A stretch of 64,000 nucleotides of DNA from Bdellovibrionota bacterium FG-1 (GTDB lineage: Bacteria; Bdellovibrionota; UBA1018): positions 1 through 64,000 of the forward strand of contig JBBCAW010000062.1 of NCBI GenBank assembly GCA_051382295.1, read 5' to 3'. Below, one piece after another: positions 4,696 through 18,002 of the stretch. A program made the translations under genes and the position numbers. Within the stretch, counting starts at the first letter, position 1. Each line of letters starts with the position of its first letter. The notes beneath the pieces were generated by a model. The model made no database searches. It was not told the origin of the DNA and worked only from the letters and a program-made list of their open reading frames with translations.

Positions 4696-4820
4696 AAGCG
4701 GTCTTCTTCTTCAAAGGCTGAGGGCTGAGGGCTAATCGCTGACACCTGATCGCTCTTTAGATACCAAATCGGACAGCTCCCATCCATGAGAACACCGGTT
4801 GCGCTGCACCCCGATCCTCC

Positions 4821-4973: not shown

Positions 4974-5234
4974 CGGGGTTACCTCCTTTCTTTGAAAAAG
5001 GGGGTAGCTCCATCTTTCCTGTCCGATTTGGCAGAGACCCATAGAGCAAGGTTGGTGCCACGGCTATCGCGATTTTCTTGGTGTTTTTGTGAGGTCTTGG
5101 TTCGATAGTCAGTATGTGCGACCGAAAATAGGATCGATGTTCATCATGTCGCTGAGGCTCTTTCGGATTCTCCTGGCCCTGGCCCCACATGGGGGTTCCC
5201 GGTAAAAAGTGAGGCCCATGATCTGAATCTGAAC

Positions 5235-5588
5235 GTGGCTCGAAGTCATCTTTACGAAATGGCCCTTCGTTTGCAGCAAAAGCTCACTCAGCGCCTCACC
5301 GCTTACATGGTCGACCTTGCTGATGGGCGCGACATCGGTCGCTACGCACGAGGAGAGCGGAAGCCTCATCCTGGCACGCAAATGAAGCTCCGCGATCTGT
5401 TCAGCCTAGTATCTATGCTGACTGAACGAGAAGATGCCGAAACGATCCAGGCTTGGTTTATGGGGCGCAACCCTGAGCTCAAACATCGGGCCCCCGCGCT
5501 GCTGCTACATGAGAATTTCAACGTAAACTATGAGCAGGTCCGAAAGGCGGCCATCAAGTTTTCAGGAAGGTACCCGCTTACTTCGTGA
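5235..5588 (+). CDS. Xre/MbcA/ParS-like antitoxin (orphan)
   Basis: IGRYARGERKP HTH-like part and IQAWFMGRNPEL..RAPA.LL C-terminal motif; the stop codon lies inside repeat R1. Confidence 0.65.
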   Translation: MARSHLYEMALRLQQKLTQRLTAYMVDLADGRDIGRYARGERKPHPGTQMKLRDLFSLVSMLTEREDAETIQAWFMGRNPELKHRAPALLLHENFNVNYEQVRKAAIKFSGRYPLTS

Positions 5589-5603
5589 TGCCCACCGCGT
5601 CAC
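5569..5603 (+). repeat. Cassette-boundary element R1
   Basis: GGTACCCGCTTACTTCGTGATGCCCACCGCGTCAC. Confidence 0.95.
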
Positions 5604-5605
5604 GC

Positions 5606-5995
5606 CTAACCGGTGCCTTGTAAAATAACCTCAGCCCAGACATGAAGCTTCGAGATCACTTTCTTCACGGCATGGCGATCGATCGAGACCACGCTGTTTC
5701 CGTCATAACGAAATTCAACCGCGAACGGTCCCAATTCCCCCAACTCTTCGAATAACACCGGACAAACCAGCCCATTTTGAACCATCAGATCGTGCAAAAG
5801 CATTAAATCATGGGTTTTCGGAAATAGGATCGACTTTTCCATTAACACGGATTTAATAAATTTTTCGGCCGCCTGTTGTGCATGAAATCCCCAAATAGAA
5901 TCTGCGATATCGGAATCATCGATGAGCTTATCTAAAAGCAACTCATCCTCCATCGCTTTTCGAAAAAATAGCCCCGCCTCATTATGCTGCGTCAT
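5606..5995 (-). CDS. HEPN-domain toxin
   Basis: GFHAQQAAEKFIK, FPKTHDL and AVEFRY motifs; overlaps the upstream MNT gene. Confidence 0.85.
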   Translation of the reverse strand: MTQHNEAGLFFRKAMEDELLLDKLIDDSDIADSIWGFHAQQAAEKFIKSVLMEKSILFPKTHDLMLLHDLMVQNGLVCPVLFEELGELGPFAVEFRYDGNSVVSIDRHAVKKVISKLHVWAEVILQGTG

Positions 5996-6308
5996 AAAGA
6001 ACTTTTCCTTCTGTTCGCGCAAAAAAGTGAAGCGTACTCGGAATTTTGGAGCGATCCTCGAACTCAGCTTCAGACACCACAAGAATATCCATAGGTACCA
6101 AGATCCCTCGAAGCGCCATCCGCAATCGAATGGACTCTCGGTATTTAGATACCACCTCCGACTCGATCACCAGTATATCCAAATCCGAATCCGCATGGGT
6201 ATCCCCGCGCGCAAAAGAACCAAACAAGATGATCTTCCTCGGCTGAGCCGTTGCAACCAACCTCGTTACAATTTCCTCAAGCATGTCTTGGGGGTTTGGG
6301 AGCCGCAT
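5982..6308 (-). CDS. Minimal nucleotidyltransferase (MNT) antitoxin
   Basis: IILFGSFARG...DSDLDILV; start uncertain (ORF extends to 6377). Confidence 0.85.
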   Translation of the reverse strand: MRLPNPQDMLEEIVTRLVATAQPRKIILFGSFARGDTHADSDLDILVIESEVVSKYRESIRLRMALRGILVPMDILVVSEAEFEDRSKIPSTLHFFARTEGKVLYDAA

Positions 6309-6459
6309 CTTTTTAGACTGCCTTTTTACTCTACGATCGTCAACCGTCTCCGCCCCGTGATTTTGATGAAAAACCATCGTCCTCGTGTCACTATTTTTTC
6401 GAGCTTGTTCAACTCAATGTTTATACCGTAAAAGCCCCAAGCCATAGTCCCTCGCTGTT

Positions 6460-6511
6460 AGATAAAAACTTTTACCTTAAGTCTGGTTACACAAGGTAAA
6501 AGTTTTTATCT
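6460..6511. repeat. Perfect 19-bp inverted repeat with 14-bp spacer
   Basis: AGATAAAAACTTTTACCTT (6460-6478) / AAGGTAAAAGTTTTTATCT (6493-6511). Confidence 0.9.
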
Positions 6512-6753
6512 TAGCTTATTAGGCCACCTAACATAATGATTTATAACGCATTTAGATTGTCGGCCTGAGTGAGACTTCCAAGATTCAAGATGGGATGAAA
6601 GCAGCAATTCCGCGAAAGCCAGGTGTTTATAAAATGAACGTGCCGGTAAATCCTTCCGCCGTAAAGGCCCCGTGTGGTCTTCGGTCGGTCGAGATAGGTA
6701 ATCGACCACTCAGCGGGACAGCTACCCCGGAATGAGGTGATTAATGGGTAATG

Positions 6754-6782
6754 TTGACATGCATGTGCGTGCATGTTAAGAT
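6754..6782 (+). promoter_or_regulatory. Sigma70 promoter with operator palindrome; likely leaderless vapBC transcript
   Basis: TTGACA-17-TAAGAT, ACATGCA-N6-TGCATGT across the spacer, ATG 6 nt after the -10. Confidence 0.7.
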
Positions 6783-6788
6783 ACATTA

Positions 6789-7028
6789 ATGAGAACGACC
6801 ATTGAACTCACCAAAGAGCAAAGGGCGGAACTTCTGAGGCTAGCGGCTAAACGCGGCCTCAAGGGGTTTTCATACATCATCCAAGAAGCCCTGGATGAAT
6901 ACCTCAAGCAAGAGTCCCAGAAGTTGGAGCTGATTGGCGCGGCTCTCGGCCTCAAGGGGGCCTTTCAAGGCAAGGCCGCCGAAGAATTTGAAGAACGAAC
7001 CCAGGAACTGAGGAGCCATTGGCGATGA
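6789..7028 (+). CDS. CopG/RHH antitoxin (VapB-like)
   Basis: MRTTIEL...S.IIQEALDEYL ribbon-helix-helix pattern; overlaps vapC. Confidence 0.75.
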   Translation: MRTTIELTKEQRAELLRLAAKRGLKGFSYIIQEALDEYLKQESQKLELIGAALGLKGAFQGKAAEEFEERTQELRSHWR

Positions 7029-7411
7029 TGATTGCAGACTCGGATGTACTGATCGATTTTCTTCGCGGCAAAGGGGCTGCCGATCGGATCGCGTATGAAA
7101 TTAAAACCGGCGGTCTTCACACAACAGCAATTTCAGCATTTGAACTTTGGGCGGGAGCCAAAAGTGATCAGCAGGCCGCCGTCGTTGAAACGCTCTTGGC
7201 GGCGATGACCGTTCTGCCATTGGAACGCGAAAGCGCTAGACGTGCTGCGAAGATACGACGGGAATTGGATGGTAAAAATTCTTCAATCGGGATGGCCGAC
7301 TCTCTGATTGCTGGCATCTGTTTAGAGCGCGACGGCGTTCTCATCACGCGCAACAAGAAACACTTTGAGCGGGTTCCAGGAATTAAACTCACGCATGGCG
7401 GTGAGGCGTAG
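7025..7411 (+). CDS. vapC: VapC PIN-domain toxin
   Basis: IADSDVLIDFLRG...ISAFEL...DSLIAG...LITRNKKHF. Confidence 0.9.
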   Translation: MMIADSDVLIDFLRGKGAADRIAYEIKTGGLHTTAISAFELWAGAKSDQQAAVVETLLAAMTVLPLERESARRAAKIRRELDGKNSSIGMADSLIAGICLERDGVLITRNKKHFERVPGIKLTHGGEA

Positions 7412-7424
7412 GACCCAGGTAAAA

Positions 7425-7459
7425 CGTATCAGGTTACTTCTTGATGCTCACTGCATCAC
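7425..7459 (+). repeat. Cassette-boundary element R2
   Basis: CGTATCAGGTTACTTCTTGATGCTCACTGCATCAC. Confidence 0.95.
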
Positions 7460-7589
7460 GACTCTGGTCCGGCAAAATGAGGGGATCAGCACGCGCAGAA
7501 CCTCTCATGAATATATTTTCGACCAAAAATCGCTCCATATGTTAAAATAGGACCAGAAAACGATCTTTTACTATAAATAGGACCAAAAA

Positions 7590-9092
7590 ATGCGCTCGGA
7601 GCCAACCCACCTTCTCCCCCCCCTTCTTTATCCTAGCCTCAACAGCTCTGAACGCAAAAAATTAACGCTCCTTCGTAAGAAGGGCCAAATTCGGCTGATC
7701 GGTCCCAGGCTCTATGCTTCAGTTCCACTCAAACAAGTTGCGACTGTAGTACGGGCTAACTGGGCCCAGATCCTATCCGCACTTTTTCCGAATTCGTTTC
7801 TCAGCCACCGCACTGCTTTTGAATACAAGCCGAGCCCTGAGGGAGAGGTTATTCTTACGGGAACAACCAATCGCGAAATCAACTATCCTGGTCTGCGACT
7901 CAGATTCATTCGTGGACCGGAACCGCTTGAGGACGATCCAAAATTTTTAACGCTTCGGGCTTCTTCACAGGCACGAATGCTGCTCGAAAACCTTTCCACA
8001 ATCCGAAAAGGGGCGAAGCCAAAAACCGCTTCCCGCGCTCAGATCGAAATGCGGCTTGAACAGCTCGTTCGTGATGGGGGTGAAGACGCGATCAATGCCC
8101 TGAGGGATCGCGCGCGTACGATTTCAAAGCAATTCGAGTGGAAGATGGAATTTGAAAGACTCGACGGCTTGATTGGCGCCATCCTGGGTACACGGTCCTG
8201 CCGCACGATCACAACAGCCTTGGCGCGGGCCCGTGCGATAGGACAGCCTTACGATCCAGCTTGCCTAGAACGAATGCAACTGCTCTTTGGTGAACTTCGT
8301 AACCGTGCTCTGCCCGCGATCCCAGATCGTTTCGTGGCATCAGGCCATTTCAAAAATAAATCTTTTTTTGAATCCTATTTTTCGAACTTCATCGAAGGCA
8401 CTACCTTTGAGCTCGAGGAGGCCGAGGATATCGTTTTTAATAAAAAAATCCCGCGTAATCGGCCGAAAGACGCCCATGATATTGTCGGAACTTTTCAAAT
8501 TATTTCAGATCCAAATGAAATGCGCCGGACGCCTCAGGGGTTTGATCAACTGCAAAACCTTTTAATCTCCCGCCACCACACTTTAATGAAGTATCGTCGC
8601 GAAGCGTCTCCGGGAGAATTCAAAAAAAACGTCAATCGCGCGGGGGATACCGTGTTTGTCCATCCCGATCTAGTCGTCGGAACCTTGAAGAAAGGACTCG
8701 AGCTTTATGACGACCTTACTCCTGGCCTTCCGCGGGCTATTTTCATGATGTTTTTGATCTCCGACATTCATCCATTCGTAGATGGCAATGGTCGCATCGC
8801 CCGAATCATGATGAATGCTGAGCTGGTTTCGTCAGGTTTCTCGACGATCCTAGTCCCTAACGTCTACCGTGAAGACTACCTCTTGGCCCTTCGTTCATTG
8901 ACTCGACGGCACCGGCCACGAGTACTGGTAGACATGTTGCTTCGAGCCCAGAGATTCTCAAATCTTGAGTTTTCGCCCTATGCTAAAATCCTCAAAGAAC
9001 TTCAACGTCGCAATTGGTTTCGAGAGCCCGAAGACGCTCGAAGAGGTATCAGGTTACTTCCTGATGCTCACTGCGTCACAAAAACGCCATGA
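7590..9092 (+). CDS. Fic-domain protein
   Basis: Canonical HPFVDGNGRIAR; SNFIEG inhibitory-like motif; last codons read through R3. Confidence 0.9.
   Translation: MRSEPTHLLPPLLYPSLNSSERKKLTLLRKKGQIRLIGPRLYASVPLKQVATVVRANWAQILSALFPNSFLSHRTAFEYKPSPEGEVILTGTTNREINYPGLRLRFIRGPEPLEDDPKFLTLRASSQARMLLENLSTIRKGAKPKTASRAQIEMRLEQLVRDGGEDAINALRDRARTISKQFEWKMEFERLDGLIGAILGTRSCRTITTALARARAIGQPYDPACLERMQLLFGELRNRALPAIPDRFVASGHFKNKSFFESYFSNFIEGTTFELEEAEDIVFNKKIPRNRPKDAHDIVGTFQIISDPNEMRRTPQGFDQLQNLLISRHHTLMKYRREASPGEFKKNVNRAGDTVFVHPDLVVGTLKKGLELYDDLTPGLPRAIFMMFLISDIHPFVDGNGRIARIMMNAELVSSGFSTILVPNVYREDYLLALRSLTRRHRPRVLVDMLLRAQRFSNLEFSPYAKILKELQRRNWFREPEDARRGIRLLPDAHCVTKTP
9045..9079 (+). repeat. Cassette-boundary element R3
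   Basis: GGTATCAGGTTACTTCCTGATGCTCACTGCGTCAC. Confidence 0.95.
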
Positions 9093-9155
9093 TCCCAGAA
9101 AACCATTCCAATTTCATCCCACTTCAGTCTATAATTGGAATGGTTAGGAGGGCAA

Positions 9156-10358
9156 ATGCCCCATTCTCGACCCCGATACGCGTTTTCAGCCTTGGAACGA
9201 AAGCTCAAATTTGCACGCGTGGTGACCCTTCAAGGAGCCAGGCAGTGTGGAAAGAGCTTTCTCGTCAAACATTTTCTGGGACAAACCCATCCGAAAATGG
9301 TGCTCGAGCGCTTTGATTTGGGCGAAACTCGAGCTTTTGCCACTGAAAATCCGGATCTCTTTCTGAGGGAGCGCATGAAAGCAAACCCCTTGGCGATTGA
9401 TGAGGCTCAAAGAGTGCCGGCCATTTTCGATGCGATCAAAGTCCAAGCCGATGAGAACCCCACCCCAGGGCGCTTTGTGCTTCTAGGGTCGACCGAGTTT
9501 TCACATCAGTTTCGAATTCAAGAATCCCTCACGGGCCGCATGAGTCGACTCAGGCTCTTTCCGATGACCTTGGGTGAGTGCCTGGAGCTACCCAACACCA
9601 AGGGGGATTTGCATGGAATTCTCTTTCGATCCCCCCGCGCCCAGGTCGATTCGGTCCTCACCATGCTGGAACGGGGCGGAATGCCCGGGATCTTTGCGGT
9701 TCGCTCGGATGAAGAACGAGAGGGACTCTTTGAAGATTGGGTCAACCTGACCTGCAATCGCGACCTTCATCAAATCCCAGGCCTCAGACTGGATTCAGAT
9801 CTTGCACACGATCTCCTTCGGGCGATCGCCACGATCGAGGAACCCATTGCGATTGAACTCGCTAAAAAATTGCACGTTTCACCCAAGGTGGTTGAAAAAC
9901 ATTTAAAAGCGCTGGAGACGCTTTTTGTGATTCAACATCTCAAGCCCCATGCCGCTGGCACCGGAAAAAATCGCTTTTATCTTTGCGACGTCGGAATTGC
10001 ACACTTTCTAGGCGGACGTCAGCAGCGCTTGCTCGAGACCTGGATTTTTCAAGAACTCAGTGCCAAGCGAGCACTCTTACCCGCTCCCTCCAAACGGCAG
10101 ATCACTTACTATCGCACCTCCAAGGGTTCAACGCTTCCTTTCGTCGTGGAGGATCAAACTCAAGGCGTTACCCTCGCTCTTCAGGCGCGTTATAAAGAAA
10201 AGGTCGACAAACGAGACCTCGCCATTGTTCAAAGCTTCAGACAAGCCCTCGGCCGTGAATCCTCAAAAAATAACTTCCACTCCTATTTGCTGCTGGCTTC
10301 GGCCTCGCGCCAAAAAATCGATGAGACCGAGGTTTTGCCCTGGGGGGCGCTCATTTAG
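9156..10358 (+). CDS. AAA_14/DUF4143-type ATPase
   Basis: GARQCGKS Walker A, IDEAQR Walker B, ESLTGR, GGMP, YLCDVG; start ATG 9156 after AGGAGG; C-terminal nuclease-like motif degenerate. Confidence 0.85.
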   Translation: MPHSRPRYAFSALERKLKFARVVTLQGARQCGKSFLVKHFLGQTHPKMVLERFDLGETRAFATENPDLFLRERMKANPLAIDEAQRVPAIFDAIKVQADENPTPGRFVLLGSTEFSHQFRIQESLTGRMSRLRLFPMTLGECLELPNTKGDLHGILFRSPRAQVDSVLTMLERGGMPGIFAVRSDEEREGLFEDWVNLTCNRDLHQIPGLRLDSDLAHDLLRAIATIEEPIAIELAKKLHVSPKVVEKHLKALETLFVIQHLKPHAAGTGKNRFYLCDVGIAHFLGGRQQRLLETWIFQELSAKRALLPAPSKRQITYYRTSKGSTLPFVVEDQTQGVTLALQARYKEKVDKRDLAIVQSFRQALGRESSKNNFHSYLLLASASRQKIDETEVLPWGALI

Positions 10359-10391
10359 GTACAGGTTACTTCTTGATGCTTGCCGCGTCAT
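10358..10391 (+). repeat. Cassette-boundary element R4
   Basis: GGTA-CAGGTTACTTCTTGATGCTTGCCGCGTCAT; overlaps the TAG of the ATPase. Confidence 0.9.
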
Positions 10392-10446
10392 TTTCGCTCA
10401 TTTGAGCCCTAGAAAAACCCGCCCTTTTGCGCTATGAATTCGCCCC

Positions 10447-13400
10447 ATGCTCTCGAATTCAGCCCCCACTGCCCCGTCCCGGCCACCCGCCCGAGAACCC
10501 GGCCGCAATGACCGCTGCCCCTGCGGAAGCGGGCGCAAATACAAACGTTGCTGCTCAGGCAGAGTGATGTCCCCTACCGCCCATTCATCCTCTGAAAAAA
10601 TGAATCATGGCTTTTGCCTTCCTTCCGAATCCAAACTTCGCGTCTACACCCTCCTCAAACTGAAAGCGGCCTTTTTTGACCGAGACTCTTTTCCATTGGC
10701 CGAAGAAATTCTCTGCGACCTGGAGAGCAAGCAGGGGGTTCAGGCCAAACGCCTCACGACCGGCGAATTGGATTTGTCCTTCACCTATGACGGGATCAGC
10801 GATGACGACTACACTCCGCTGAAGCCGGCACACGTCCGCATTCAGGAGTCAAAACCCTCAGAAGACTTTGTCGCTCGTTGTGATTGCCAAAATGGACGTC
10901 AAGACCGCCTTTGCGGTCATCTCATGGCTTCTTTAATCCTCCTTTGGCGACTTCTCAATCGCGACTACAAAGGAATTAAACACCCACCCCTCGAAGAGTA
11001 TTTGGCTGAAAAGGTCGAACCCCAACTCGACGTGCTCCTGGGGCGTACCCATCGGCCAAATCCAAATGCTGGCATCTCCTTGGCCGCTGTGGTTTTTTGC
11101 CTATCCGATGCCTCCGAGCCTCTCAAACCAAAAGAGGCTTCCATCTCAGGATCCATCCCGCCTATGCGGTCCGGTGACCTTCACTCTCTCATTCAAAGAG
11201 CTCGATTGCCCCTGACTTCGTCAACCCTGTCGCCAGATGATTTTCCTGCCACCTTAAGAAGTCAACTTGAGCACCCCGAATATTCTTACTGGAACAATCC
11301 CCAGACCTTGCTCCGCGAACACCTCCAATACCAGTTTTCAGATGGGACTACACTCACCGCGCTAGAATTGCTCCGTCATCGATTTCTAAAAAAGGTTCCC
11401 AAAGACCTCTTACCTCTTCGCGAAACCTCCGAAGCCCCCATCCCCGGATGGGCCCATCTAATCTTGCCAGAGGCCCTCAGTGCTCGCTACTGGTATGACA
11501 AAGACATGGAGCGCGCCTTCATCGGACTCCTCGCCCGCGCACTGAAAACGAAATCAAAAAGTGCAAATGCTCCTCGGGTCGCCTTCACCTCCAGCGTCCT
11601 CCGCGAACAGAAACGATCCACCCTTGAAATTCAAGCCATCGAATTCGATGCCCCGCCAGCAGAAGGATCCAAATCCCACTGGCAACTCATCCCGAGTCCC
11701 GAAAGTCGCCCCAACGAAGCTCAACTCAAATTTTCCGGAGATTCACAACACTGTTGGACCATCGACGGCAGCACGCTGCGCTTCCTTCCGGGGCCCGCGA
11801 CCGCTTCCGCGCGCCCAAAATCCTCTACTCACATCATCGCCAACCAAGAACAAATCACCGACGAAGTTCAAGCGCTGAACAACTTCTTGACCGCCCGAGA
11901 CCTTCCAGGCGTCACCCTCCCCGAGCCACTGCGACTCAATGCCACTGATCCCTCCGTCGTGCGCCCCGAGATCCGTCTCGATTCGACGGATACTTTTCGG
12001 TTCGCCCTGTTTTTGCCCGCATTCAATACCCGCGTCTGGAACCCTAATCCGGAAGCCCGCAGCTGGATCTATCTCCTCAAGGACGGCATCGGCGCCGCAG
12101 CCCCCGTTGATAAGTCCGAACTTGCACACAATCATCGAGGTTCCAAGCGAGACGCCGATCTCAAATTACTACGCCACTGTGGCTTTGCCTCCTGTTTATT
12201 TTTAGAGACGGCCTCCTACGCTCTCGAAGGAAAGTCATCATCGGGGCAAGAATTTGCCAATCCCAAGGATTTTAAAGCCTGGCTCAAAACCAGACTCACC
12301 ACGCTCGCCCTTGAAATTATCGACAAAACCGAGCCTCTCGAAACCGTCTACTCCCATCGCGTGGTCGAGTTTATCTGGCTGTTGGCCCAGCAAATTCAGG
12401 ATTCACTGACAAAACCCCGCGCTTGGCACTGCCTAGTCGCAGGCAACTGGCTGACCCTCGAACAAGGATCTTTGCCGATCGCCCGTTTCATACTCCAACT
12501 TCTGCGGGGAGCCGCACTCCGCACGGGCGGGCTTTGCTTTACCAAGGCCCGCACCCCCGCGGCTTTTCAAGGTACGACTCAATTTACCCCGATTCTAGTA
12601 GCCCCAGCAGACTCCTCAGAAAATTCCGAAGATCTTTTGATCTCGAAATTTGGAATCGAAGAACCTTTCAAAGTCTGCCTCCCCCTGCTTGCTCATGGCT
12701 ATGACCTCTATTGGAAGGGTAAGCCCTTAGGACTTCTCAATGCTGATGATTTAAAAACGGTGTTTGACCTGACGGGCTCAAAATCACTCGATTGGTTTGA
12801 GCTCAATCCCAAAGTCTTTTTGATGGGCAAGCAAATCAGTCGCGACGCGTTTAGCGAAATCGCTCGTACTGGCATGATGGAATTTCAAGGCCAGCTCTAT
12901 TTGATCCCCGCCGCCAATCTGCCCTCGATGAAGAGACTTTCCAAATTCTGGGAACGCCTAGGCGGAAATGGGAATGCTTTAGGCAATTTTAACGAGGAGT
13001 CCGGTGGTTACCACCGACTGCCCAAAAGCCAAGCGCTCGAATTTCTGGCGCTGGAAAAAGAACTGGGCGCGGAGGTGCTGGGTGAAAACGCGGAATGGAA
13101 AGCGGTTCGCGAATTTTACCACTCACTTGATTTGCCCCGCCCCCCGCTTGAGGTTCCGAAAACGATTTTGGCCGAACTCAAGCCCTATCAGAAACTCGGC
13201 GTGCAATGGCTTTTGGACCTCCATCGCTTGCGCCTCGGGGGCATTTTGGCCGATGACATGGGCTTGGGTAAAACCCTGCAAGCGCTCGCATTTTTAGAGA
13301 TTTTACGCATTCAAAACCGCCTGGGTCCAAGTCTAATAATCGTCCCCACCAGCCTGACCTGGAATTGGAAGAGCGAAGCCGAGCGCTTTACCCCCTCACT

Positions 13401-14634
13401 TCCAATCCGAGTTTTTGATCCCAAGGCCAAGACGGCAATCGAGCAAGACTTGGCCGCAGGCACCCTCAAACTTTTGGTGGTCACCTACGGCTTACTCCTC
13501 GAACATCAAGAATGGTTTGAGAAGCAAACCTCCGGCGATCCGCGCCGCTGGGACGTGGTGCTCCTTGACGAAGCTCAAAACATCAAAAACATTCGCGCCA
13601 AACGGACCGAGGCCGCGCGCAGTCTCAATGCCGCTTACAAATTTTGTATGACGGGCACGCCGCTTGAGAATAATTTGGGTGAGCTTTATTCGCTCATGGA
13701 CCTCGTGGTGCCGGGTTCGCTGGGCGAGCTGACCGGCTTTCGTTCGAAATATGAGGGAATTTCAGACCCTCAAGAAGCGGCGATTGAGTTTGGCTTTCTC
13801 CGGTTACTCCTCAGACCTTTGATGCTCCGGCGAACGAAATCCCAAGTTTTAATGGAATTACCGCCCAAAACTGAAAGTCGGGTGAATCTTCCGCTTGAAG
13901 CCAAACAACGCAAAATCTACCGAGATGTGGCGCTTTCGTGGAATCAACAAGTGCAGGCCTCGATTGAGCAATATGGTGAAGCGCGCAGTCAATTGGTGAT
14001 GCTGACGGCATTACTGCGGCTGCGCCAAGTTTGCTCGGATCCCGCCACGGTGCCGGGGGTGAAATATCCAGGTATTTCGCCCAAAATGGATCTGTTGGCG
14101 GAGTCCCTTCAAGAAATTCTGGAAGCGGGCGAAAGCGTCCTGGTGTTTACACAGTTTGTGGGGACCCTGGAGCGGTTACGGACGCATTTGACCTCGCTTG
14201 GAATCGAAACTCTTTGTATTCACGGCGCCATTTCGCGCGCGGAACGCGAGCGGATTTTGCGGCAGTTTCAAGATCCGCAAGCACCCGCGCAAGTGCTGAT
14301 CATGACGCTTAAAACCGGGGGCGTGGGCCTCAACCTCACGCGCGCAAGTTACGTGTTTCATCTAGAGCCGTGGTGGAATCCTGCCGCTGAAAACCAAGCC
14401 ACAGACCGTGCCCATCGCATTGGACAGGAGCGCCCGGTGCAGGTTTATCGCTATGTGATGCAAGACACGGTGGAAGAAAAGATCGAGCTCCTCAAGGCGC
14501 GCAAGGCTGCGGTCTTCGATGCGGTGATGGTGGAATCGGCGGATGGCGCGGTCGAAGGCACCCCGGGCCTGAGAACGCTCAGTCAGCGGGATTTTGAGGT
14601 GTTGTTGTCCGAAAGGTATCAGGTTACTTCGTGA
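10447..14634 (+). CDS. SEC-C + SWIM zinc finger + SNF2-family helicase
   Basis: GRNDRCPCGSGRKYKRCC; CDC...CGH; LADDMGLGKT, DEAQ, TGTPLEN, QATDRAHRIGQ; stop inside R5. Confidence 0.92.
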   Translation: MLSNSAPTAPSRPPAREPGRNDRCPCGSGRKYKRCCSGRVMSPTAHSSSEKMNHGFCLPSESKLRVYTLLKLKAAFFDRDSFPLAEEILCDLESKQGVQAKRLTTGELDLSFTYDGISDDDYTPLKPAHVRIQESKPSEDFVARCDCQNGRQDRLCGHLMASLILLWRLLNRDYKGIKHPPLEEYLAEKVEPQLDVLLGRTHRPNPNAGISLAAVVFCLSDASEPLKPKEASISGSIPPMRSGDLHSLIQRARLPLTSSTLSPDDFPATLRSQLEHPEYSYWNNPQTLLREHLQYQFSDGTTLTALELLRHRFLKKVPKDLLPLRETSEAPIPGWAHLILPEALSARYWYDKDMERAFIGLLARALKTKSKSANAPRVAFTSSVLREQKRSTLEIQAIEFDAPPAEGSKSHWQLIPSPESRPNEAQLKFSGDSQHCWTIDGSTLRFLPGPATASARPKSSTHIIANQEQITDEVQALNNFLTARDLPGVTLPEPLRLNATDPSVVRPEIRLDSTDTFRFALFLPAFNTRVWNPNPEARSWIYLLKDGIGAAAPVDKSELAHNHRGSKRDADLKLLRHCGFASCLFLETASYALEGKSSSGQEFANPKDFKAWLKTRLTTLALEIIDKTEPLETVYSHRVVEFIWLLAQQIQDSLTKPRAWHCLVAGNWLTLEQGSLPIARFILQLLRGAALRTGGLCFTKARTPAAFQGTTQFTPILVAPADSSENSEDLLISKFGIEEPFKVCLPLLAHGYDLYWKGKPLGLLNADDLKTVFDLTGSKSLDWFELNPKVFLMGKQISRDAFSEIARTGMMEFQGQLYLIPAANLPSMKRLSKFWERLGGNGNALGNFNEESGGYHRLPKSQALEFLALEKELGAEVLGENAEWKAVREFYHSLDLPRPPLEVPKTILAELKPYQKLGVQWLLDLHRLRLGGILADDMGLGKTLQALAFLEILRIQNRLGPSLIIVPTSLTWNWKSEAERFTPSLPIRVFDPKAKTAIEQDLAAGTLKLLVVTYGLLLEHQEWFEKQTSGDPRRWDVVLLDEAQNIKNIRAKRTEAARSLNAAYKFCMTGTPLENNLGELYSLMDLVVPGSLGELTGFRSKYEGISDPQEAAIEFGFLRLLLRPLMLRRTKSQVLMELPPKTESRVNLPLEAKQRKIYRDVALSWNQQVQASIEQYGEARSQLVMLTALLRLRQVCSDPATVPGVKYPGISPKMDLLAESLQEILEAGESVLVFTQFVGTLERLRTHLTSLGIETLCIHGAISRAERERILRQFQDPQAPAQVLIMTLKTGGVGLNLTRASYVFHLEPWWNPAAENQATDRAHRIGQERPVQVYRYVMQDTVEEKIELLKARKAAVFDAVMVESADGAVEGTPGLRTLSQRDFEVLLSERYQVTS

Positions 14635-14649
14635 TGCCCGGCGCGTTAA
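14615..14649 (+). repeat. Cassette-boundary element R5
   Basis: GGTATCAGGTTACTTCGTGATGCCCGGCGCGTTAA. Confidence 0.95.
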
Positions 14650-14893
14650 GAGACCTCAGAACAGCGCATCAAGTGTCACGTCTGAATGAACCAATCGTCC
14701 ATAGTACACGTTTTGCGTTACCCCCCTGGTTGTGACCAACGAATCCAGCCCTAAGGCCGACTGAATCTTACTCACATGCTTGAGGCAAACCCCTTCAAAC
14801 GTAAAACCGGCCTCTTCAAGATATAAACCGCCAAATCATAAATAATAAACACATGATTTGGCGAACTATAGACAACCTATAATCCGCCAAATC
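14650..14893 (-). pseudogene. Miniature triple-deleted copy of the 16349-17961 ATPase cassette
   Basis: Four colinear blocks matching 16349-16441, 16667-16739, 16917-16930 and 17886-17961. Confidence 0.9.
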
Positions 14894-14909
14894 TACAGAG
14901 AATCCAACC

Positions 14910-16265
14910 TCAGTCGCTAGGCCTAAAGACCTGATCCACGGCATACACTGGCCAGCTCTCGAGGTTATAGCGGGCGCGGGCTCGTCCTTTGCCGGTCATC
15001 ATCTCGACATCGATTTGTTGCTTCACAGGAGACGAACTATCAAAACGAATAGCCTGTTTCAATTTTTTTTCATGCATGAATTGGTGCAAGGATCTCAACG
15101 ATCCGGACTTTCCGGCCTTCACCTCGAGCGGCATGACCCGCCCCCCCTCGGACCAAACAAAATCAATTTCAGCGTTTCCGGCGCTCCCGTCTCGCAGCCA
15201 ATAAAACAGTTCCGGAAATGGCCGCGCATGCTGAATCAAATGTTGCGCCACAAACTGCTCAACGATGGCCCCTTTTTGAAGCCATAGCGCATCAGCACCC
15301 TCATTAACATCCTCCCACTTGAGCCCCATCGAAGCGTTCGCTAGCCCCACGTCTAAAAAATAGAGTTTATAAACCTCATCTGACTTTCCTGCGGCCAACG
15401 GCACGCCCGAGCAATCGGAGTGAAAGACGGGCAACACGACTCGCGCTTGGATCAAAAGCTTGATTGCATTTTTTAAATACTTGGACTGCACGTCTGCGGT
15501 GATATTGGAGTACTTGATTTTTTGACCCAATGCTCGAGGTACGTAATCAAAGACACGATCAAGTCGCCCGATCTCAGTCTTTTTGGCGTACTTCGGAAAG
15601 TCGTCCCGATAGGTTTCCAGAATCGATTGCTGCACCCGACGAACCTCCAGCATGGAGCCACTTTCAGAGTAAGCCCGCACGGCCTCAGGCATTCCCCCCA
15701 CAAAGAGGTATTCGCGCCATTTTCGAAGTAAAAGTTCATGTTCCTCTGGAGAAACCGAGCTTGTCCGAATTTCATTCAATCGCTCCCAAAGCTGCTCGCC
15801 TCGGGTAGCCTGCAAAAACTCCCCAAAACTCATGGGCCCCAAGTGAAGATACTCGATACGGCCGACAGGCATGGAAAACTGACCTTCCTCAATCGCAAAT
15901 TCGAGTAAGGACCCGGCGGCAATGACGGGGATCTTCGGGGCCTCCTCGTAAAAGTACCGCAACGCCTCAAGTGCCTGGGGATTACCCTGAATCTCATCGA
16001 GAAACAACAACGACCGCTGAGGTGTAAAGCTCTTACCGACGGTCGATTCGATGTCCCTTAAAATTTGCTGAGGATCGAGGGTTGCGAAGGACTGAAGTAA
16101 CGGCCGCTTTTCGAGATTGATCTCAAGCAGCTCCAGCCCCATCGAGGCGGCAAACTGGCGGACGAGTGTGGATTTGCCGACCTGACGAGCACCCCGCAAA
16201 ACGAGGGGCTTTCGATGAGCGGACTTCCACCAGGAGGCTAATCTGTCTTCAGAAGAACGATACAT
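14910..16265 (-). CDS. AAA_14/DUF4143 ATPase with C-terminal PD-(D/E)XK-like motif
   Basis: GARQVGKS, FLDEIQ, PVGR, GGMPE, EIDFV...PLEVKAG. Confidence 0.9.
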   Translation of the reverse strand: MYRSSEDRLASWWKSAHRKPLVLRGARQVGKSTLVRQFAASMGLELLEINLEKRPLLQSFATLDPQQILRDIESTVGKSFTPQRSLLFLDEIQGNPQALEALRYFYEEAPKIPVIAAGSLLEFAIEEGQFSMPVGRIEYLHLGPMSFGEFLQATRGEQLWERLNEIRTSSVSPEEHELLLRKWREYLFVGGMPEAVRAYSESGSMLEVRRVQQSILETYRDDFPKYAKKTEIGRLDRVFDYVPRALGQKIKYSNITADVQSKYLKNAIKLLIQARVVLPVFHSDCSGVPLAAGKSDEVYKLYFLDVGLANASMGLKWEDVNEGADALWLQKGAIVEQFVAQHLIQHARPFPELFYWLRDGSAGNAEIDFVWSEGGRVMPLEVKAGKSGSLRSLHQFMHEKKLKQAIRFDSSSPVKQQIDVEMMTGKGRARARYNLESWPVYAVDQVFRPSD

Positions 16266-16313
16266 ACCCCTATTTTAGTCTAAATTAGACCAAAAGATAC
16301 CCCTATTTGAGTG

Positions 16314-16348
16314 GGTACCCGCTTACTTCGTGATGCCCGGCGCGTCAA
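16314..16348 (+). repeat. Cassette-boundary element R6
   Basis: GGTACCCGCTTACTTCGTGATGCCCGGCGCGTCAA. Confidence 0.95.
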
Positions 16349-16354
16349 AAAACC

Positions 16355-17836
16355 TCAGAATAGTGCATCCAGTGTCACGTCTGAATGAACCAATCGTCCA
16401 TAGTACACGTTTTGCGCTACCCCCCTGGTTGTAACCAACGAGAGAAAGATCTCTTTGCGCTTTCGCTGGGACTTTCGAAAAACGTCCATTTTTCGCTCGA
16501 GCTCTGCTGCGTAGGACTTGTCGATCACAAACTCATTTTCACTATACTTAAGCTCACAAAGCGTCACCACAGAATCAGCGCGATCAAAAAGTAAATCAAC
16601 CTGCGCACCGGATTCTTTCGATTTTTTTGGCGGCATATATCGCCAGGTTCCGATTTCGCATTCACCCGAATCCAGCCCTAAGGCCGACTGAATCTTACTC
16701 GCATGCTTCAGACAAACCCCTTCAAACGTAAAACCGGCCCAACTCCGCCAAGCTGGCGTTCCGCGCTTTTGCATCCAATACCGGGACGGCGTCCCAGCAA
16801 AGAGTCCCTTGGGCGCCGACGCAATCCATTTTAGATAAAAGTAACAGTATTCATCTATTACCCTGAAAAACATTTCCTTCTTTTTTTTTCCATATGGCAC
16901 GAAACTTGAAATAAATCCGGCCTCTTCAAGTTCCCGAAGCCTTTCGTTAAGCCAACCACCCGAGGTGAGATGCAAGCTCGAATCGATTTTAGCATTTTGA
17001 ATCAGCTCGGTTCTACTAATACCATACCGATGGCGAGCAATTTCCTCAAAGAGACGATATTGCACTCTAGCCTCTGAAAACAGAGAAGAGAATAGCCTTT
17101 GATATTCTTCACGAAGCAGACCATCCCTGGAAAAGCATACCTGATCAATAATTTGAGCCGCAGATTTCCCCCTTTGTGCTTTTTGAAGATAAAAAGGGAC
17201 GCCCCCAAAAGCCATGTACAACTCCAAAACCTGCTCCCGACTCAATTTTACGTTTCGGCTATGAAGGTATTCTTCAGTTTCAGCAAGAGTAAACGGCTGC
17301 AGCTGTATCGTTTGCGTGATTCGGTTATGAAGGCCGCCCTTTGCATGAATCAACTTTTCGATCATCCATGATGCAGCGGATCCACACAGCACGATTTTTA
17401 GCTGAGGCAATAAATTCCATTCGGTGTTCCAAAAATGATCAAGCGCCTGAAGTAAGCCGGATTTTGGCGTAGCCAACCAAGGGAGTTCATCCAAAAACAA
17501 TACAAATCGATCTCGTTTCTTTCCCTTTTTTACCTCATCAGTAAACATTCGAAAAGCGGCGTTCCAATTAGGCACTCGTTGAATCGAAATCCCACCATAA
17601 AAAACTGTCTGAAGCGCCGAAGTAAAGATTTCGAGTTCTTCTTCCATCGTGCCGTCCTTCAGTCCCACGACCTCCATATACCCCCCCTTTCTCTTGAGGG
17701 TTTCTCTAATGAGTTCAGTTTTTCCGATACGGCGACGACCATAAACTGCAACAAGCTCTGCTCGATTGGATGCCCAAGCCTGTTGAAGCAGGGTTTTCTC
17801 AGCCTTCCGACCCACAAAAATCTCTTTTGGCTCCAT
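16355..17836 (-). CDS. ATPase_2 (archaeal-type) ATPase with wHTH and C-terminal nuclease-like domain
   Basis: FVGR..E, YGRRRIGKT, FLDELPW, LCGS, GGVPFYL, QVDLL...LCELKY; start re-set to ATG 17836. Confidence 0.88.
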   Translation of the reverse strand: MEPKEIFVGRKAEKTLLQQAWASNRAELVAVYGRRRIGKTELIRETLKRKGGYMEVVGLKDGTMEEELEIFTSALQTVFYGGISIQRVPNWNAAFRMFTDEVKKGKKRDRFVLFLDELPWLATPKSGLLQALDHFWNTEWNLLPQLKIVLCGSAASWMIEKLIHAKGGLHNRITQTIQLQPFTLAETEEYLHSRNVKLSREQVLELYMAFGGVPFYLQKAQRGKSAAQIIDQVCFSRDGLLREEYQRLFSSLFSEARVQYRLFEEIARHRYGISRTELIQNAKIDSSLHLTSGGWLNERLRELEEAGFISSFVPYGKKKKEMFFRVIDEYCYFYLKWIASAPKGLFAGTPSRYWMQKRGTPAWRSWAGFTFEGVCLKHASKIQSALGLDSGECEIGTWRYMPPKKSKESGAQVDLLFDRADSVVTLCELKYSENEFVIDKSYAAELERKMDVFRKSQRKRKEIFLSLVTTRGVAQNVYYGRLVHSDVTLDALF

Positions 17837-17890
17837 GGTCACACCCCCCTTTAGCCTAACAATACAACGGTATCTCGCAAAACAGAAGAT

Positions 17891-17961
17891 ATAATCCGCC
17901 AAATCTAAAATAATAATCACATGATTTGGCGTACTATAGGCTACCTATAATCCGCCAAATC
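17891..17961. promoter_or_regulatory. Operator-like boxes ATAATCCGCCAAATC x2 plus inverted GATTTGGCG
   Basis: Direct copies at 17891 and 17947, inverted at 17923; conserved in the remnant at 14822-14893. Confidence 0.6.
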
Positions 17962-17967
17962 GATTTG

Positions 17968-18002
17968 GGTACCCGCTTACTTCGTGATGCCCGCCGCGTC
18001 AC
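17968..18002 (+). repeat. Cassette-boundary element R7
   Basis: GGTACCCGCTTACTTCGTGATGCCCGCCGCGTCAC. Confidence 0.95.

What the first reader, a model, noticed from the sequence alone, without database searches (positions are those of the whole stretch)
5569..18002. Integron-like cassette array delimited by an unrecognised 35-bp motif + hairpin element (7 copies)
Seen: seven same-orientation copies at 5569, 7425, 9045, 10358, 14615, 16314 and 17968, consensus GGTAYCMGS-TTACTTC-B-TGATGC-N5-GCRTCA. TTACTTC and the hairpin arms are nearly invariant while the 5-nt loop varies (CCACC, TCACT, TTGCC, CCGGC, CCGCC), which suggests selection on structure. The intervals (1.3-4.2 kb) each hold one gene or TA module in either orientation, with an upstream region at one end and a gene 3' end at the other. 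I saw no copies in the 34 kb of core genes. Established: attC sites have RYYYAAC/GTTRRRY ends, dif sites have XerC/XerD arms and CRISPR spacers are ~30-40 bp; none of these fits. A conserved motif next to a short hairpin is the architecture used by ssDNA HUH (Y1) enzymes (IS200/IS605 TnpA, RAYT/REP). Inference: a gene-capture/shuffling platform beside the pilin locus, driven by an enzyme encoded outside the window.
Basis: partly seen in the sequence, partly recalled or inferred. Interest (0 to 1): 0.92.

Follow-up and report, generated by a model that had tools for sequence, protein, structure and literature searches.

The report
REP repeats punctuating an accessory-gene island
The seven repeats are real, but they are copies of a small hairpin repeat (a REP element) that belongs to a single-strand-DNA transposase gene elsewhere in this genome, clustered unusually densely between toxin-antitoxin and ATPase genes, and not the recombination sites of an integron-like gene-capture machine.

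Summary
Seven co-oriented copies of a 34-35 nt motif lie at the stated places, where 0.03 are expected by chance, and the window has no others.

The motif is not private to this array. The genome holds 18 strong copies, and 11 of them are scattered, mostly right at the 3' ends of core genes or a tRNA. One scattered copy overlaps the stop codon of a single-copy gene for a REP-associated tyrosine transposase (RAYT, HUH/Y1) on another contig. In related genera the orthologous RAYT is flanked on both sides by inverted copies of the motif or of diverged versions of it. There the motif also forms tight convergent doublets. So it is a lineage-specific (Bdellovibrionales/Oligoflexia) REP family.

The integron-like capture platform is not supported. 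The 114-kb contig has no integrase or resolvase, and Fic orthologues in six other genomes carry no repeat.

What remains unusual:
- 7 of the 18 copies sit in 12.4 kb, all in one orientation.
- The repeats coincide with the ends of a duplication and of a gene loss.
- RAYT-driven shuffling is therefore possible but not shown.

Unchecked notes of this scan describe similar repeat-punctuated islands in other phyla.

The parts
5569..5602 (+). REP copy c1 (GGTACCCGC-TTACTTCG-TGATGC-CCACC-GCGTCA)
   Evidence: 55.3 bits. Homology of the upstream ORF to its paralogue on contig C97 stops at 5562, just 5' of the repeat. The ORF ends at the TGA inside the repeat.
7425..7458 (+). REP copy c2
   Evidence: 53.7 bits. 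It starts 13 nt after the stop codon of the PIN gene 7019-7411.
9045..9078 (+). REP copy c3
   Evidence: 55.7 bits. The Fic ORF reads through it to 9092. Orthologues in other genomes end at about residue 485 of 500, which is where the repeat starts.
10358..10390 (+). REP copy c4 (one base shorter in the 5' block)
   Evidence: 44.9 bits. The TAG stop of the AAA_14/DUF4143 gene 9135-10358 overlaps its first base. It is the only 1 of the 7 copies that also fits the terminator-like rule.
14615..14648 (+). REP copy c5 (5' block of the c2-c4 type, 3' half and flank as c6)
   Evidence: 57.6 bits. The SNF2 ORF 10447-14634 ends at the TGA inside it. 14615-14742 is 91% identical to 16314-16441.
16314..16347 (+). 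REP copy c6
   Evidence: 55.2 bits. It lies 49 nt upstream of the start of the minus-strand AAA_14/DUF4143 gene.
17968..18001 (+). REP copy c7
   Evidence: 52.6 bits. It is 97% identical to c1. The minus-strand ORF 17977-18312 ends at the TTA of its TTACTTC.
5235..5588 (+). orphan antitoxin-like ORF (117 aa), cut at its 3' end by c1
   Evidence: No Pfam hit. 5206-5562 is 85% identical to C97:87-443. There the gene has a faint Xre_MbcA_ParS_C match (E 0.089, below cut-off) and overlaps the start of a RES-domain toxin gene (PF08808, E 1.7e-7, over cut-off). That toxin gene is missing here.
5606..6377 (-). HEPN (5606-6082) and nucleotidyltransferase (5982-6377) pair, MNT/HEPN-type TA-like module
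   Evidence: PF05168 E 2.8e-11; PF18765 E 3.6e-11 and PF01909 E 8.2e-11.
6789..7411 (+). RHH (6789-7028) and PIN (7019-7411) pair, VapBC-type TA-like module
   Evidence: PF01402 E 3.5e-5; PF01850 E 7e-16.
7590..9092 (+). Fic/DOC-domain gene with its own upstream operator-like repeats
   Evidence: PF02661 E 5.1e-13. Orthologues of 53-58% identity occur in 6 other genomes of the family, none with a repeat beside it.
9135..10358 (+). AAA_14/DUF4143 ATPase gene
   Evidence: It is one of about 40 DUF4143 matches in the genome.
10447..14634 (+). SNF2-family helicase gene with N-terminal SEC-C motif (1395 aa)
   Evidence: PF00176 E 3.7e-61, PF00271, PF02810.
14649..14893 (.). deleted remnant of the c6-c7 module (ATPase_2 gene ends and promoter region)
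   Evidence: 14615-14742 matches 16314-16441 (91%), 14740-14812 matches 16667-16739 (96%), and 14818-14893 matches 17886-17961 (91%).
14910..16265 (-). AAA_14/DUF4143 ATPase gene, lying between the remnant and c6 with no repeat on its 3' side
   Evidence: PF13635 E 1.1e-30, PF13173 E 8.6e-25.
16355..17920 (-). ATPase_2 (archaeal-type/STAND-like) ATPase gene
   Evidence: PF01637 E 7.3e-13.
2091..3908 (-). left flank: large pilin-like protein with N-terminal methylation motif
   Evidence: PF07963 E 3.6e-4, just under cut-off.
18540..19160 (+). right flank: type IV pilin-like gene
   Evidence: PF07963 E 2.2e-10; ComP_DUS 27.2 bits against a cut-off of 27.3.

Best explanation
The 35-nt motif is a REP (repetitive extragenic palindrome) family specific to a group of Bdellovibrionales/Oligoflexia genera.

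The enzyme. Its cognate enzyme is a single-copy RAYT, a REP-associated tyrosine transposase of the HUH/Y1 class. It is encoded outside the window, next to tRNA-Val on contig C78.

The unit. It runs about 41 nt. A first hairpin is well formed in relatives (AAAAGGTGG-loop-CCACCTTTT) and degenerate here (AAAGGTA-TCAGGT-TACTTT). A tail follows that ends in the conserved GCGTCA.

Inference from known RAYT/IS200 biology: the RAYT binds the folded top strand as single-stranded DNA and nicks and rejoins beside it. This seeds copies preferentially at or in the last codons of genes.

The array. The seven window copies are direct REP singlets of one subtype (TTACTTC). They sit at the junctions of self-contained accessory modules: TA pairs, Fic, AAA_14/DUF4143, SNF2 and ATPase_2. 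Their common orientation follows from the preference for the 3' end of a co-oriented gene in a mostly co-directional island. Once in place, the direct repeats served as endpoints of a tandem duplication and of at least one gene loss.

Shown: the repeat family, its spread, the adjacent RAYT, the flanked orthologues, and the junction coincidences. Inferred: the catalysis, the target preference, and how the array grew. It is not an integron.
For: 1. Genome-wide spread. There are 18 strong copies (44.9-63.6 bits) and 5 weak ones in the 4.44-Mb genome. Eleven of the 18 lie outside the array, on 10 contigs.

2. Position of scattered copies. Seven of the 11 directly follow or overlap the end of a co-oriented gene or tRNA: an RRM protein, propionyl-CoA carboxylase carboxyltransferase, a giant Laminin_G_3 protein, an ABC permease, czcD, ksgA and tRNA-Val. 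An eighth follows a tRNA-like 3' fragment. In the array the figure is 5 of 7.

3. The RAYT. The ORF at C78:5433-6092 (219 aa) ends in a TGA that overlaps a motif copy. It matches NCBIfam NF047646 'REP-associated tyrosine transposase' at E 2e-20, 73.1 bits against an equivalog cut-off of 80. It also matches E. coli TnpA-REP, PDB 4er8, at E 2.2e-7. HUH (N60-H61-x-H63) and K119-Y120...R123-N124-P125-V126 are invariant in 10 aligned homologues. The genome has only one copy.

4. Flanked orthologues. Of the 29 RAYT loci searched (one of the 30 fetched was left out to fit the size limit), copies flank the gene on both sides in inverted orientation in 4 (G062, G059, G058, G078). In 3 (G000, G081, G006) they lie on one side. 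Most of the rest are flanked by diverged versions.

5. Hairpin covariation. In an alignment of 33 such flanking repeats, 5 of the 9 hairpin-1 pairs change on both sides. That is 22 cells against 11.5 +/- 2.6 in shuffles, and 0 of 500 shuffles reach it.

6. Co-occurrence. 13 of the 14 motif-positive genomes have the RAYT, against 13 of the 61 motif-negative ones (relatives are not independent).

7. REP-like organisation in relatives. In 5 relatives, 122 hits include 17 tight convergent doublets and 0 tight divergent ones. Metagenome contigs also show doublets and clusters.

8. In-place insertion. The carboxyltransferase orthologue in G064 ends ...GTTTAA where G000 has ...GTTTAG followed by the repeat. 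Fic orthologues end where c3 begins.

9. Junctions at the repeats. The duplication of the c5 and c6 blocks, and the homology breaks at 5562 and 17961, lie at the repeats.

10. Published definition. [quoted passage not shown]
Against: - No copy was found on the 5' side of the RAYT in G000 itself.
- The RAYT scores under NCBIfam's equivalog cut-off and under Pfam's Y1_Tnp cut-off (17.3 against 23).
- The repeat has no GT[AG]G head, which most described REPs carry (PMC3733652, PMC6006769; passages read).
- The copy number (18-23) is low for a REP family.
- All G000 copies are singlets, although doublets are thought to be the mobile unit in pseudomonads (PMC3337134, abstract in the search listing).
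- A gene-end preference alone does not explain 7 of 18 copies in 0.28% of the genome. My arithmetic gives an expectation of 0.05 and a Poisson tail of about 1e-13. No comparable kb-spaced run was seen in 5 relatives. Something local, such as subtype amplification, duplication or module insertion beside repeats, must be added, and which one is not shown.
- No binding or cleavage has been tested.
Confidence: 0.8

Rival explanations
1. RAYT-driven cassette shuffling. Any two direct REP singlets act like the left and right ends of an IS200/IS605 element. The RAYT then peels out the repeat-to-repeat segment as a single-stranded circle and pastes it beside another repeat. On this view the array is a working gene-exchange platform for TA and defence-type modules.
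For: - Seven co-oriented copies of one subtype (TTACTTC in 7 of 7 array copies against 2 of 11 scattered ones) separate self-contained modules.
- Homology breaks fall at the 5' edge of the repeat unit twice: 5562|5569 and 17961|17968.
- c5 combines the 5' block of one subtype with the 3' half and flank of another.
- The AAA_14 gene 14894-16313 sits exactly between a module end and c6.
- A second contig (C64) has two co-oriented copies around AAA_14/DUF4143 genes.
- Accessory genes abut scattered copies: AAA_14 on C8, a zeta-toxin-like gene on C11, and an rve/AAA_25 element on C13.
- Nunvar et al. proposed RAYT cleavage at two directly repeated REPs with circularisation of the module as a model for how composite REP clusters (BIMEs) form (PMC2817692, Discussion passage read).
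- Unchecked notes of this scan report similar islands in other phyla.
Against: - No circle, empty site or alternative order was observed.
- Six Fic orthologues in other genomes, including REP-bearing G008 and G059, are not repeat-bounded.
- Only about 5 of about 40 DUF4143 genes lie by a repeat.
- The c5-c6 interval has a module junction with no repeat at 14893/14894.
- No kb-spaced direct run exists in 5 relatives with 122 hits.
- Ordinary unequal recombination between direct repeats explains the duplication and the loss equally well. REPs at rearrangement joints are known in E. coli (PMC1428787, passages read).
Confidence: 0.15
2. RNA-level element. The repeat is kept mainly because, once transcribed at the 3' end of a gene, its hairpin protects or ends the mRNA or insulates neighbouring modules. 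The array reflects selection for such insulators between independently regulated toxin and defence genes.
For: - 12 of 18 strong copies follow a co-oriented gene or tRNA end.
- All variation in the 3' arm keeps Watson-Crick or G-U pairs on the + strand only: GC 16 and GU 9 at one pair, UG 21 and UA 3 at another.
- REPs are reported as 3'UTR regulators in E. coli (bioRxiv 10.64898/2026.03.23.713779, abstract in the search listing only).
Against: - Only 1 of 7 array copies fits a hairpin-plus-T-run terminator rule.
- The hairpin is weak.
- Copies also lie upstream of genes, in divergent spacers and inside an rpsP-trmD operon in relatives.
- Inverted copies flank the RAYT, and tight convergent doublets are common. 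An RNA role does not explain either.
- This reading is compatible with a REP origin and does not replace it.
Confidence: 0.1
3. Site-specific recombinase cassette system (integron-like, Xer/dif-module-like or serine-recombinase-like). The repeat is then the att site of a tyrosine or serine recombinase.
For: A direct array of short conserved sites lies between single modules. An imperfect dyad GGTATCA-N10-TGATGCC can be read in the sequence. Integrase-like ORFs lie 5.4 kb and 2.5 kb from two scattered copies, on C140 and C128.
Against: - None of the genome's 27 PF00589 hits and 14 PF00239 hits lies on the 114-kb contig that holds the array.
- The only gene recurrently adjacent to the site across genera is the RAYT.
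- The loop, the one candidate overlap region between the inverted arms, varies between copies.
- Copies occur as tight inverted doublets in relatives.
- Rfam found no family in the window.
Confidence: 0.02

Closest known systems
REP-RAYT systems (REPtrons; REP/BIME of enterobacteria, REPIN-RAYT of pseudomonads; E. coli TnpA-REP, PDB 4er8)
   Same: - A short hairpin repeat scattered in extragenic or gene-end positions.
- A single-copy HUH/Y1 transposase homologue flanked by inverted copies of the repeat.
- Repeat and enzyme diverge together between genera.
- Convergent doublets and small clusters occur in relatives.
   Different: - No GT[AG]G head.
- A two-part unit: a hairpin plus a tail of about 16 nt ending in GCGTCA.
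- Only about 18-40 copies per genome.
- In this genome all copies are singlets, and 7 form a co-oriented array with kb spacing between accessory genes.
- The host is an Oligoflexia/Bdellovibrionales lineage. My one library search for 'Bdellovibrio' with 'RAYT' listed 9 papers, none on this topic by title or abstract.
CGTC-tagged REPs (Di Nocera et al. 2013, PMC3733652; passages read)
   Same: A conserved CGTC lies at one end of the unit (within GCGTCA). The stem is 8-9 bp and starts with A-T pairs. The loop is 3-5 nt in the relatives' version.
   Different: [quoted passage not shown] Here CGTC lies about 16 nt from hairpin 1, is paired within hairpin 2 in this sub-lineage, and the repeats flank a RAYT. 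Membership is not established.
IS200/IS605-family ends (IS608 LE/RE) and their miniature derivatives
   Same: A Y1 HUH enzyme. Subterminal hairpins of like sequence and the same orientation at both ends of a mobile segment. Strand-specific folding. This is recalled from knowledge of the family and is touched on in the PMC6006769 abstract.
   Different: No tnpA or tnpB lies between the repeats. The two 'ends' of each interval are the same unit, not distinct left and right ends. The cargo is unrelated accessory genes. The TTAC in the motif is the same tetranucleotide as the IS608 target, but this was not tested and may be coincidence.
Integron cassette arrays (attC sites, IntI)
   Same: A direct array of mostly single modules, rich in TA genes, separated by a short structured repeat whose folding is strand-specific.
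   Different: - No intI, attI or common promoter.
- The repeat is 35 nt and lacks the paired R/L boxes.
- Modules lie in both orientations with their own promoters.
- The repeat is also scattered after core genes and flanks a RAYT.
- It does not travel with the Fic gene between genomes.

Membership tests
REP/RAYT system | Short (20-40 nt) repeat with hairpin potential, in many scattered, mostly extragenic copies | tested here: met
   The genome has 18 strong and 5 weak copies. Relatives have 10-40 copies each. The copy number is low for the kind.
REP/RAYT system | RAYT gene flanked by two copies of the repeat in inverted orientation (PMC2817692) | tested here: met
   Both sides are flanked in 4 of the 29 RAYT loci searched with the model, and one side in 3, including G000. 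Diverged inverted versions are seen by eye around most of the others. In G000 itself only the 3' side is flanked.
REP/RAYT system | The enzyme is a Y1 HUH transposase homologue of the RAYT type (HUH motif, catalytic Tyr, RAYT-specific profile) | tested here: met
   NF047646 at E 2e-20 but 73.1 bits, under the cut-off of 80. PDB 4er8 TnpA-REP at E 2.2e-7. HUH and KY..RNPV are invariant in 10 homologues. Pfam Y1_Tnp scores only 17.3 bits.
REP/RAYT system | Conserved GT[AG]G tetranucleotide at the 5' foot of the hairpin | tested here: not met
   The consensus is AAAAGGTATCAGGTTACTTNNTGATGC..GCGTCA. There is no GTAG or GTGG head at the foot. Quentin et al. note atypical structures for some subclasses (PMC6006769, passages read).
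REP/RAYT system | Single-copy, vertically inherited RAYT that co-diverges with its repeat | tested here: met
   G000 has 1 match. Homologues occur in 26 of 75 family genomes, several in the same tRNA-REP-RAYT arrangement. The repeat sequence differs between genera while the architecture stays. No tree test was run.
REP/RAYT system | Doublets (REPIN) or BIME-like clusters | tested here: inconclusive
   There are 17 tight convergent doublets among 122 hits in 5 relatives, and doublets or clusters in 5 of 13 metagenome loci. G000 has none: all its copies are singlets.
REP/RAYT system | The RAYT binds and cleaves its repeat as single-stranded DNA | not testable with these tools
   This needs protein and oligonucleotide assays.
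Integron | intI tyrosine recombinase with attI and Pc next to the array | tested here: not met
   The genome has 27 PF00589 hits, none on contig C62. The ORFs of window 1-24000 scanned with Pfam include no recombinase.
Integron | attC sites: 57-141 nt imperfect palindromes with R''/L''/L'/R' boxes that travel with the cassette | tested here: not met
   The conserved block is 34-41 nt with no conservation beyond it. The repeat is absent beside 6 Fic orthologues. IntegronFinder's attC model itself could not be run.
CGTC-tagged REP super-family (PMC3733652) | Unpaired CGTC directly at one end of an 8-9 bp stem; 3-nt tail; no associated transposase | tested here: not met
   CGTC is present, but about 16 nt from hairpin 1 and paired within hairpin 2. 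The repeats flank a RAYT.

The most novel reading that the evidence does not exclude
Direct REP singlets and their single RAYT form a working HUH-driven module-exchange system. The enzyme excises and re-inserts whole repeat-to-repeat segments, as IS200/IS605 elements move between their two like-oriented hairpin ends. Islands of TA and defence-type genes would then be assembled and reshuffled at REP sites. Together with the similar islands noted by this scan in other phyla, this would be a widespread, integrase-free counterpart of the integron.
Probability: 0.15. Interest if true: 0.8.

Novelty: new member of a known kind. Interest (0 to 1): 0.35.

Why it matters
The finding shows that REP-RAYT systems, studied mostly in gamma-proteobacteria, exist in an uncultured Bdellovibrionales/Oligoflexia lineage. 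Here they take an unusual form: no GTAG head, and a hairpin plus a GCGTCA tail. The repeat sits exactly at stop codons and at the joints of a duplicated and eroded TA/ATPase island. That makes the island a compact natural case for asking whether REPs only mark permissive sites and fuel ordinary recombination, or whether a domesticated HUH transposase can move host genes. If the second were shown, it would add a new route of accessory-gene shuffling. As it stands, the element is an ordinary kind in a new host.

Tried and rejected
- Strain comparison. No other genome of the same genus is held. The genes flanking the island are too diverged for synteny: the 359-aa neighbour has homologues in only 6 of 74 other family genomes, at 36% identity or less. 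Downstream synteny of the carboxyltransferase locus is also not conserved.
- Metagenome scans. The array subtype gave 0 loci. The general pattern gave 13 loci, none with a kb-spaced array.
- Sequencing runs. None was listed, so no reads were laid and excision joints could not be sought.
- Rfam. Nothing in the window reached the gathering scores. ARAGORN found no tRNA in the window.
- Replication-strand bias. Repeat orientation against local GC skew shows no consistent sign across independent loci: about 9 negative and 6 positive.
- Alternative hairpin GGTATCA/TGATGCC. It folds in 2 of 8 copies, but the GGTACCC subtype cannot form it.
- Link to AAA_14/DUF4143 genes. Only about 5 of about 40 lie by a repeat.
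- Other Y1-like ORFs of the genome (2 of IS200 type, 7 of a family of about 200 aa). None lies by the motif, and none has an exact inverted repeat of 12 nt or more between its flanks.
- Rejected on sequence form: DNA uptake sequence (far too few copies), dif/Xer sites, CRISPR.
- RAYT subclass. Assigning the RAYT to the subclasses of Quentin et al. or Bertels et al. was not possible without their profiles. Supplements of the papers were not opened.

Full report
**1. The observation**

A pattern search for TTACTTCNTGATGCN5GCRTCA, allowing up to 3 mismatches, gave 7 matches in the 64-kb window. Shuffles expect 0.03 matches, and 0 of 100 shuffles reached 7.

The aligned copies share a block of 34-35 nt, GGTAYCMGS-TTACTTC-N-TGATGC-N5-GCRTCA. 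Nothing is conserved beyond it, except between c5 and c6. A covariance model built from 25 copies and run over the window without filters found the same seven and nothing else above 7 bits. Rfam and ARAGORN found nothing in the window.

**2. What lies between the copies**

| Position | Content |
|---|---|
| upstream of c1 | an ORF with no Pfam hit |
| c1-c2 | a HEPN/nucleotidyltransferase pair and an RHH/PIN pair |
| c2-c3 | a Fic/DOC gene |
| c3-c4 | an AAA_14/DUF4143 ATPase |
| c4-c5 | a 1395-aa SNF2 helicase with a SEC-C motif |
| c5-c6 | a second AAA_14/DUF4143 gene, minus strand |
| c6-c7 | an ATPase_2 gene, minus strand |

Pilin-like genes flank the island. The c5-c6 interval also holds a deleted copy of the c6-c7 module:
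- 14615-14742 matches 16314-16441.
- 14740-14812 matches 16667-16739.
- 14818-14893 matches 17886-17961.

**3. The motif is not private to the array**

The window is G000:C62:1-64000, in a 4.44-Mb assembly of 158 contigs. A relaxed pattern and the model find 18 strong copies (44.9 bits or more) and 5 weak ones. Eleven strong copies lie on 10 other contigs.

Seven of those 11 directly follow, or overlap, the end of a co-oriented core gene or tRNA:
- an RRM protein
- a propionyl-CoA carboxylase carboxyltransferase
- a 1956-aa Laminin_G_3 protein
- an ABC permease
- czcD
- ksgA
- tRNA-Val after rpoC

An eighth follows a tRNA-like 3' fragment that neither ARAGORN nor Rfam calls.

Several ORFs end at the TGA inside the repeat: SNF2, the ABC permease, czcD and the ORF before c1. 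Others read through it (Fic, ksgA). Two minus-strand ORFs end at the TTA of TTACTT.

Two comparisons show that the repeat was inserted at the very end of resident genes:
- In the carboxyltransferase orthologue of G064 the native ...GTTTAA stands where G000 has ...GTTTAG followed by the repeat.
- Fic orthologues stop at about residue 485 of 500, where c3 starts.

**4. Where else the motif occurs**

A strict 33-nt pattern scanned over one genome of each of 185,579 species hit 7 loci. All are titled MAG Bdellovibrionales or Oligoflexia. The model hit 14 of 75 genomes of the family. Five genera have 10-40 copies each.

In those five genomes, 122 hits at E of 0.01 or less include 17 convergent pairs within 150 nt, no tight divergent pair, and only one run of three co-oriented copies, which spans 550 nt. 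Metagenome contigs show the same doublets and small clusters. This is how REP/BIME/REPIN repeats are organised.

**5. The enzyme**

The genome has 10 Y1_Tnp-like ORFs. One of them, C78:5433-6092 (219 aa), has its stop codon inside a motif copy that lies between it and tRNA-Val.
- It matches NCBIfam NF047646 'REP-associated tyrosine transposase' at E 2e-20 and 73.1 bits, against an equivalog cut-off of 80.
- It matches E. coli TnpA-REP (PDB 4er8) at E 2.2e-7.
- Pfam Y1_Tnp scores only 17.3 bits.
- It is single-copy in G000 and has homologues in 26 of the 75 family genomes.
- HUH and the KY..RNPV tyrosine motif are invariant in 10 aligned homologues.

With the model, motif copies flank the homologue on both sides in inverted orientation (REP, then RAYT, then inverted REP) in G062, G059, G058 and G078. 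They lie on one side in G000, G081 and G006. That makes 7 of the 29 loci searched.

Printing the flanks shows that most other homologues are bracketed by diverged versions: AAAAGGTGG-TCA-CCACCTTTT followed by about 16 nt ending in GCGTCA. In an alignment of 33 such flanking repeats, 5 of the 9 pairs of this first hairpin change on both sides. That is 22 cells against 11.5 +/- 2.6 in shuffles, and 0 of 500 shuffles reach it. Relatedness inflates such numbers.

Thirteen of the 14 motif-positive genomes have the RAYT, against 13 of the 61 motif-negative ones. In ten of those 13 motif-negative genomes the gene's flanks, printed, show a diverged repeat. Nunvar et al. define RAYTs by exactly this arrangement (PMC2817692, abstract and passages read).

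The other Y1-like ORFs are two IS200-type genes and seven copies of a family of about 200 aa. None is next to the motif.

**6. Anatomy of the repeat here**

Only the 3' arm varies, by transitions that keep G-T/G-U wobble on the + strand. As DNA it is weak. Across genera this second hairpin is not kept. The first hairpin and the terminal GCGTCA are kept. In G000 the first hairpin is degenerate (AAAGGTA-TCAGGT-TACTTT).

There is no GT[AG]G head. The CGTC in the tail recalls the 'CGTC-tagged' REPs of Di Nocera et al., but there the tag sits unpaired at the stem foot and no transposase is associated (PMC3733652, passages read). I do not file it there.

**7. Is the array a capture platform?**

Evidence against:
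- The genome has 27 PF00589 and 14 PF00239 hits, and none lies on the 114-kb contig.
- Six Fic orthologues of 53-58% identity carry no repeat, two of them in REP-bearing genomes. They do carry the same upstream operator-like repeats, so the module travels without the site.
- Only about 5 of about 40 DUF4143 genes lie by a repeat.
- One module junction (14893/14894) has no repeat.
- Only 1 of the 7 copies looks like an intrinsic terminator, so a simple terminator reading fails too.

Evidence that something local happened:
- By my arithmetic, 7 of 18 copies in 12.4 kb has an expectation of 0.05.
- All seven copies share TTACTTC, which only 2 of the 11 scattered copies have.
- c5 joins the 5' block of c2-c4 to the 3' half and flank of c6.
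- The c5 and c6 blocks are a duplication that begins at the repeat.
- Homology of the ORF before c1 to its paralogue on C97 stops at 5562. On C97 the gene runs into a RES-domain toxin gene (PF08808, E 1.7e-7), which is missing here.
- Homology of the remnant to the c6-c7 module stops at 17961, 6 nt before c7.

Unequal recombination or slippage between direct repeats explains a duplication whose joint is a repeat, and a deletion that ends at one. REPs at such joints are on record in E. coli (PMC1428787, passages read; it cites Kofoid 2003, which I did not read). RAYT-catalysed repeat-to-repeat excision would explain them as well, and Nunvar et al. drew such a model for BIME formation (PMC2817692, Discussion passage). 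I cannot tell the two apart with the data at hand.

**8. Verdict**

The repeat is a new REP family of a RAYT in a Bdellovibrionales/Oligoflexia lineage, which is a known kind of system. The integron-like reading is not supported.

The co-oriented, kb-spaced array in a TA/ATPase island is unusual among the genomes searched, and it coincides with rearrangement joints. I put 0.15 on active RAYT-driven module shuffling.

Unchecked notes of this scan describe similar REP/RAYT-punctuated accessory islands in Methylomirabilota-like, myxobacterial, Bacteroidota, Firmicute and Acidobacteriota genomes. A note on another piece of this genome reports a different hairpin repeat. I did not test any of these. 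They only suggest that the pattern recurs.

Noticed in passing
window 4696-5135: A non-coding-looking repeat of about 440 bp, with no Pfam hit in its two small ORFs. It recurs at 71-87% identity elsewhere in the genome, three times in tandem on contig C5 (62193-63488) and on C22 (72206-73402), and once each on C23, C30 and C89. Its nature is unknown.
   Followed up: partly
window 3987-4094: Five tandem copies of an 18-nt unit (ATTTGTGTCGGCAACGGG) lie inside the 148-aa minus-strand ORF 3965-4411, next to the large pilin-like gene. They would encode a hexapeptide repeat.
   Followed up: no
window 19202-19301, 21429-21528 and 27680-27796: A repeat of about 100-120 nt (86-87% identical), beginning GCCGACAAATCCGGGGGTTTTTATTTC, follows three genes of the pilin neighbourhood.
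   Followed up: no
window 878-1075 and 1960-2080: Two adjoining segments of 68 and 61 nt are repeated about 1 kb apart at 90-93% identity, left of the large pilin-like gene.
   Followed up: no
G000 contigs C33 (two), C1, C41, C61, C98, C130: Seven near-identical ORFs of about 200 aa have a weak Y1_Tnp match (23-28 bits) and an NHIHLL motif. They form a multi-copy HUH-like family unrelated to the motif, and no exact inverted repeat of 12 nt or more lies between their flanks.
   Followed up: partly
G000 genome-wide; contig C64 (L007): The genome has about 40 DUF4143 matches (AAA_14/DUF4143 ATPases). The 8.5-kb contig C64 consists almost wholly of them, carries two co-oriented motif copies (one truncated), and ends 31 nt from a copy.
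   Followed up: partly
L004 (G000:C13:45501-57967): Two motif copies lie 442 nt apart after an ABC permease gene. They are followed by an AAA_25/GntR gene and a 673-aa rve-integrase gene, which looks like a mobile element inserted beside the repeats.
   Followed up: no
L009 (G000:C128) about 2900-2990: A motif copy follows a tRNA-like 3' fragment ending in CCA that neither ARAGORN nor Rfam calls. A partial integrase ORF lies 2.5 kb away. In G002 a full tRNA with a similar 3' end is followed by a REP and the RAYT.
   Followed up: partly
window 7480-7590 and loci L101-L106: The Fic gene and all six of its orthologues keep two to three upstream copies of an ACCAAAAAATGA-like box. This is probably the operator of the module's own regulation.
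   Followed up: no
window 14822-14901 and 17890-17967: Copies of CCGCCAAATC and its complement, inverted and direct, bracket the start of the ATPase_2 gene and recur in its remnant. This is an operator-like arrangement.
   Followed up: no
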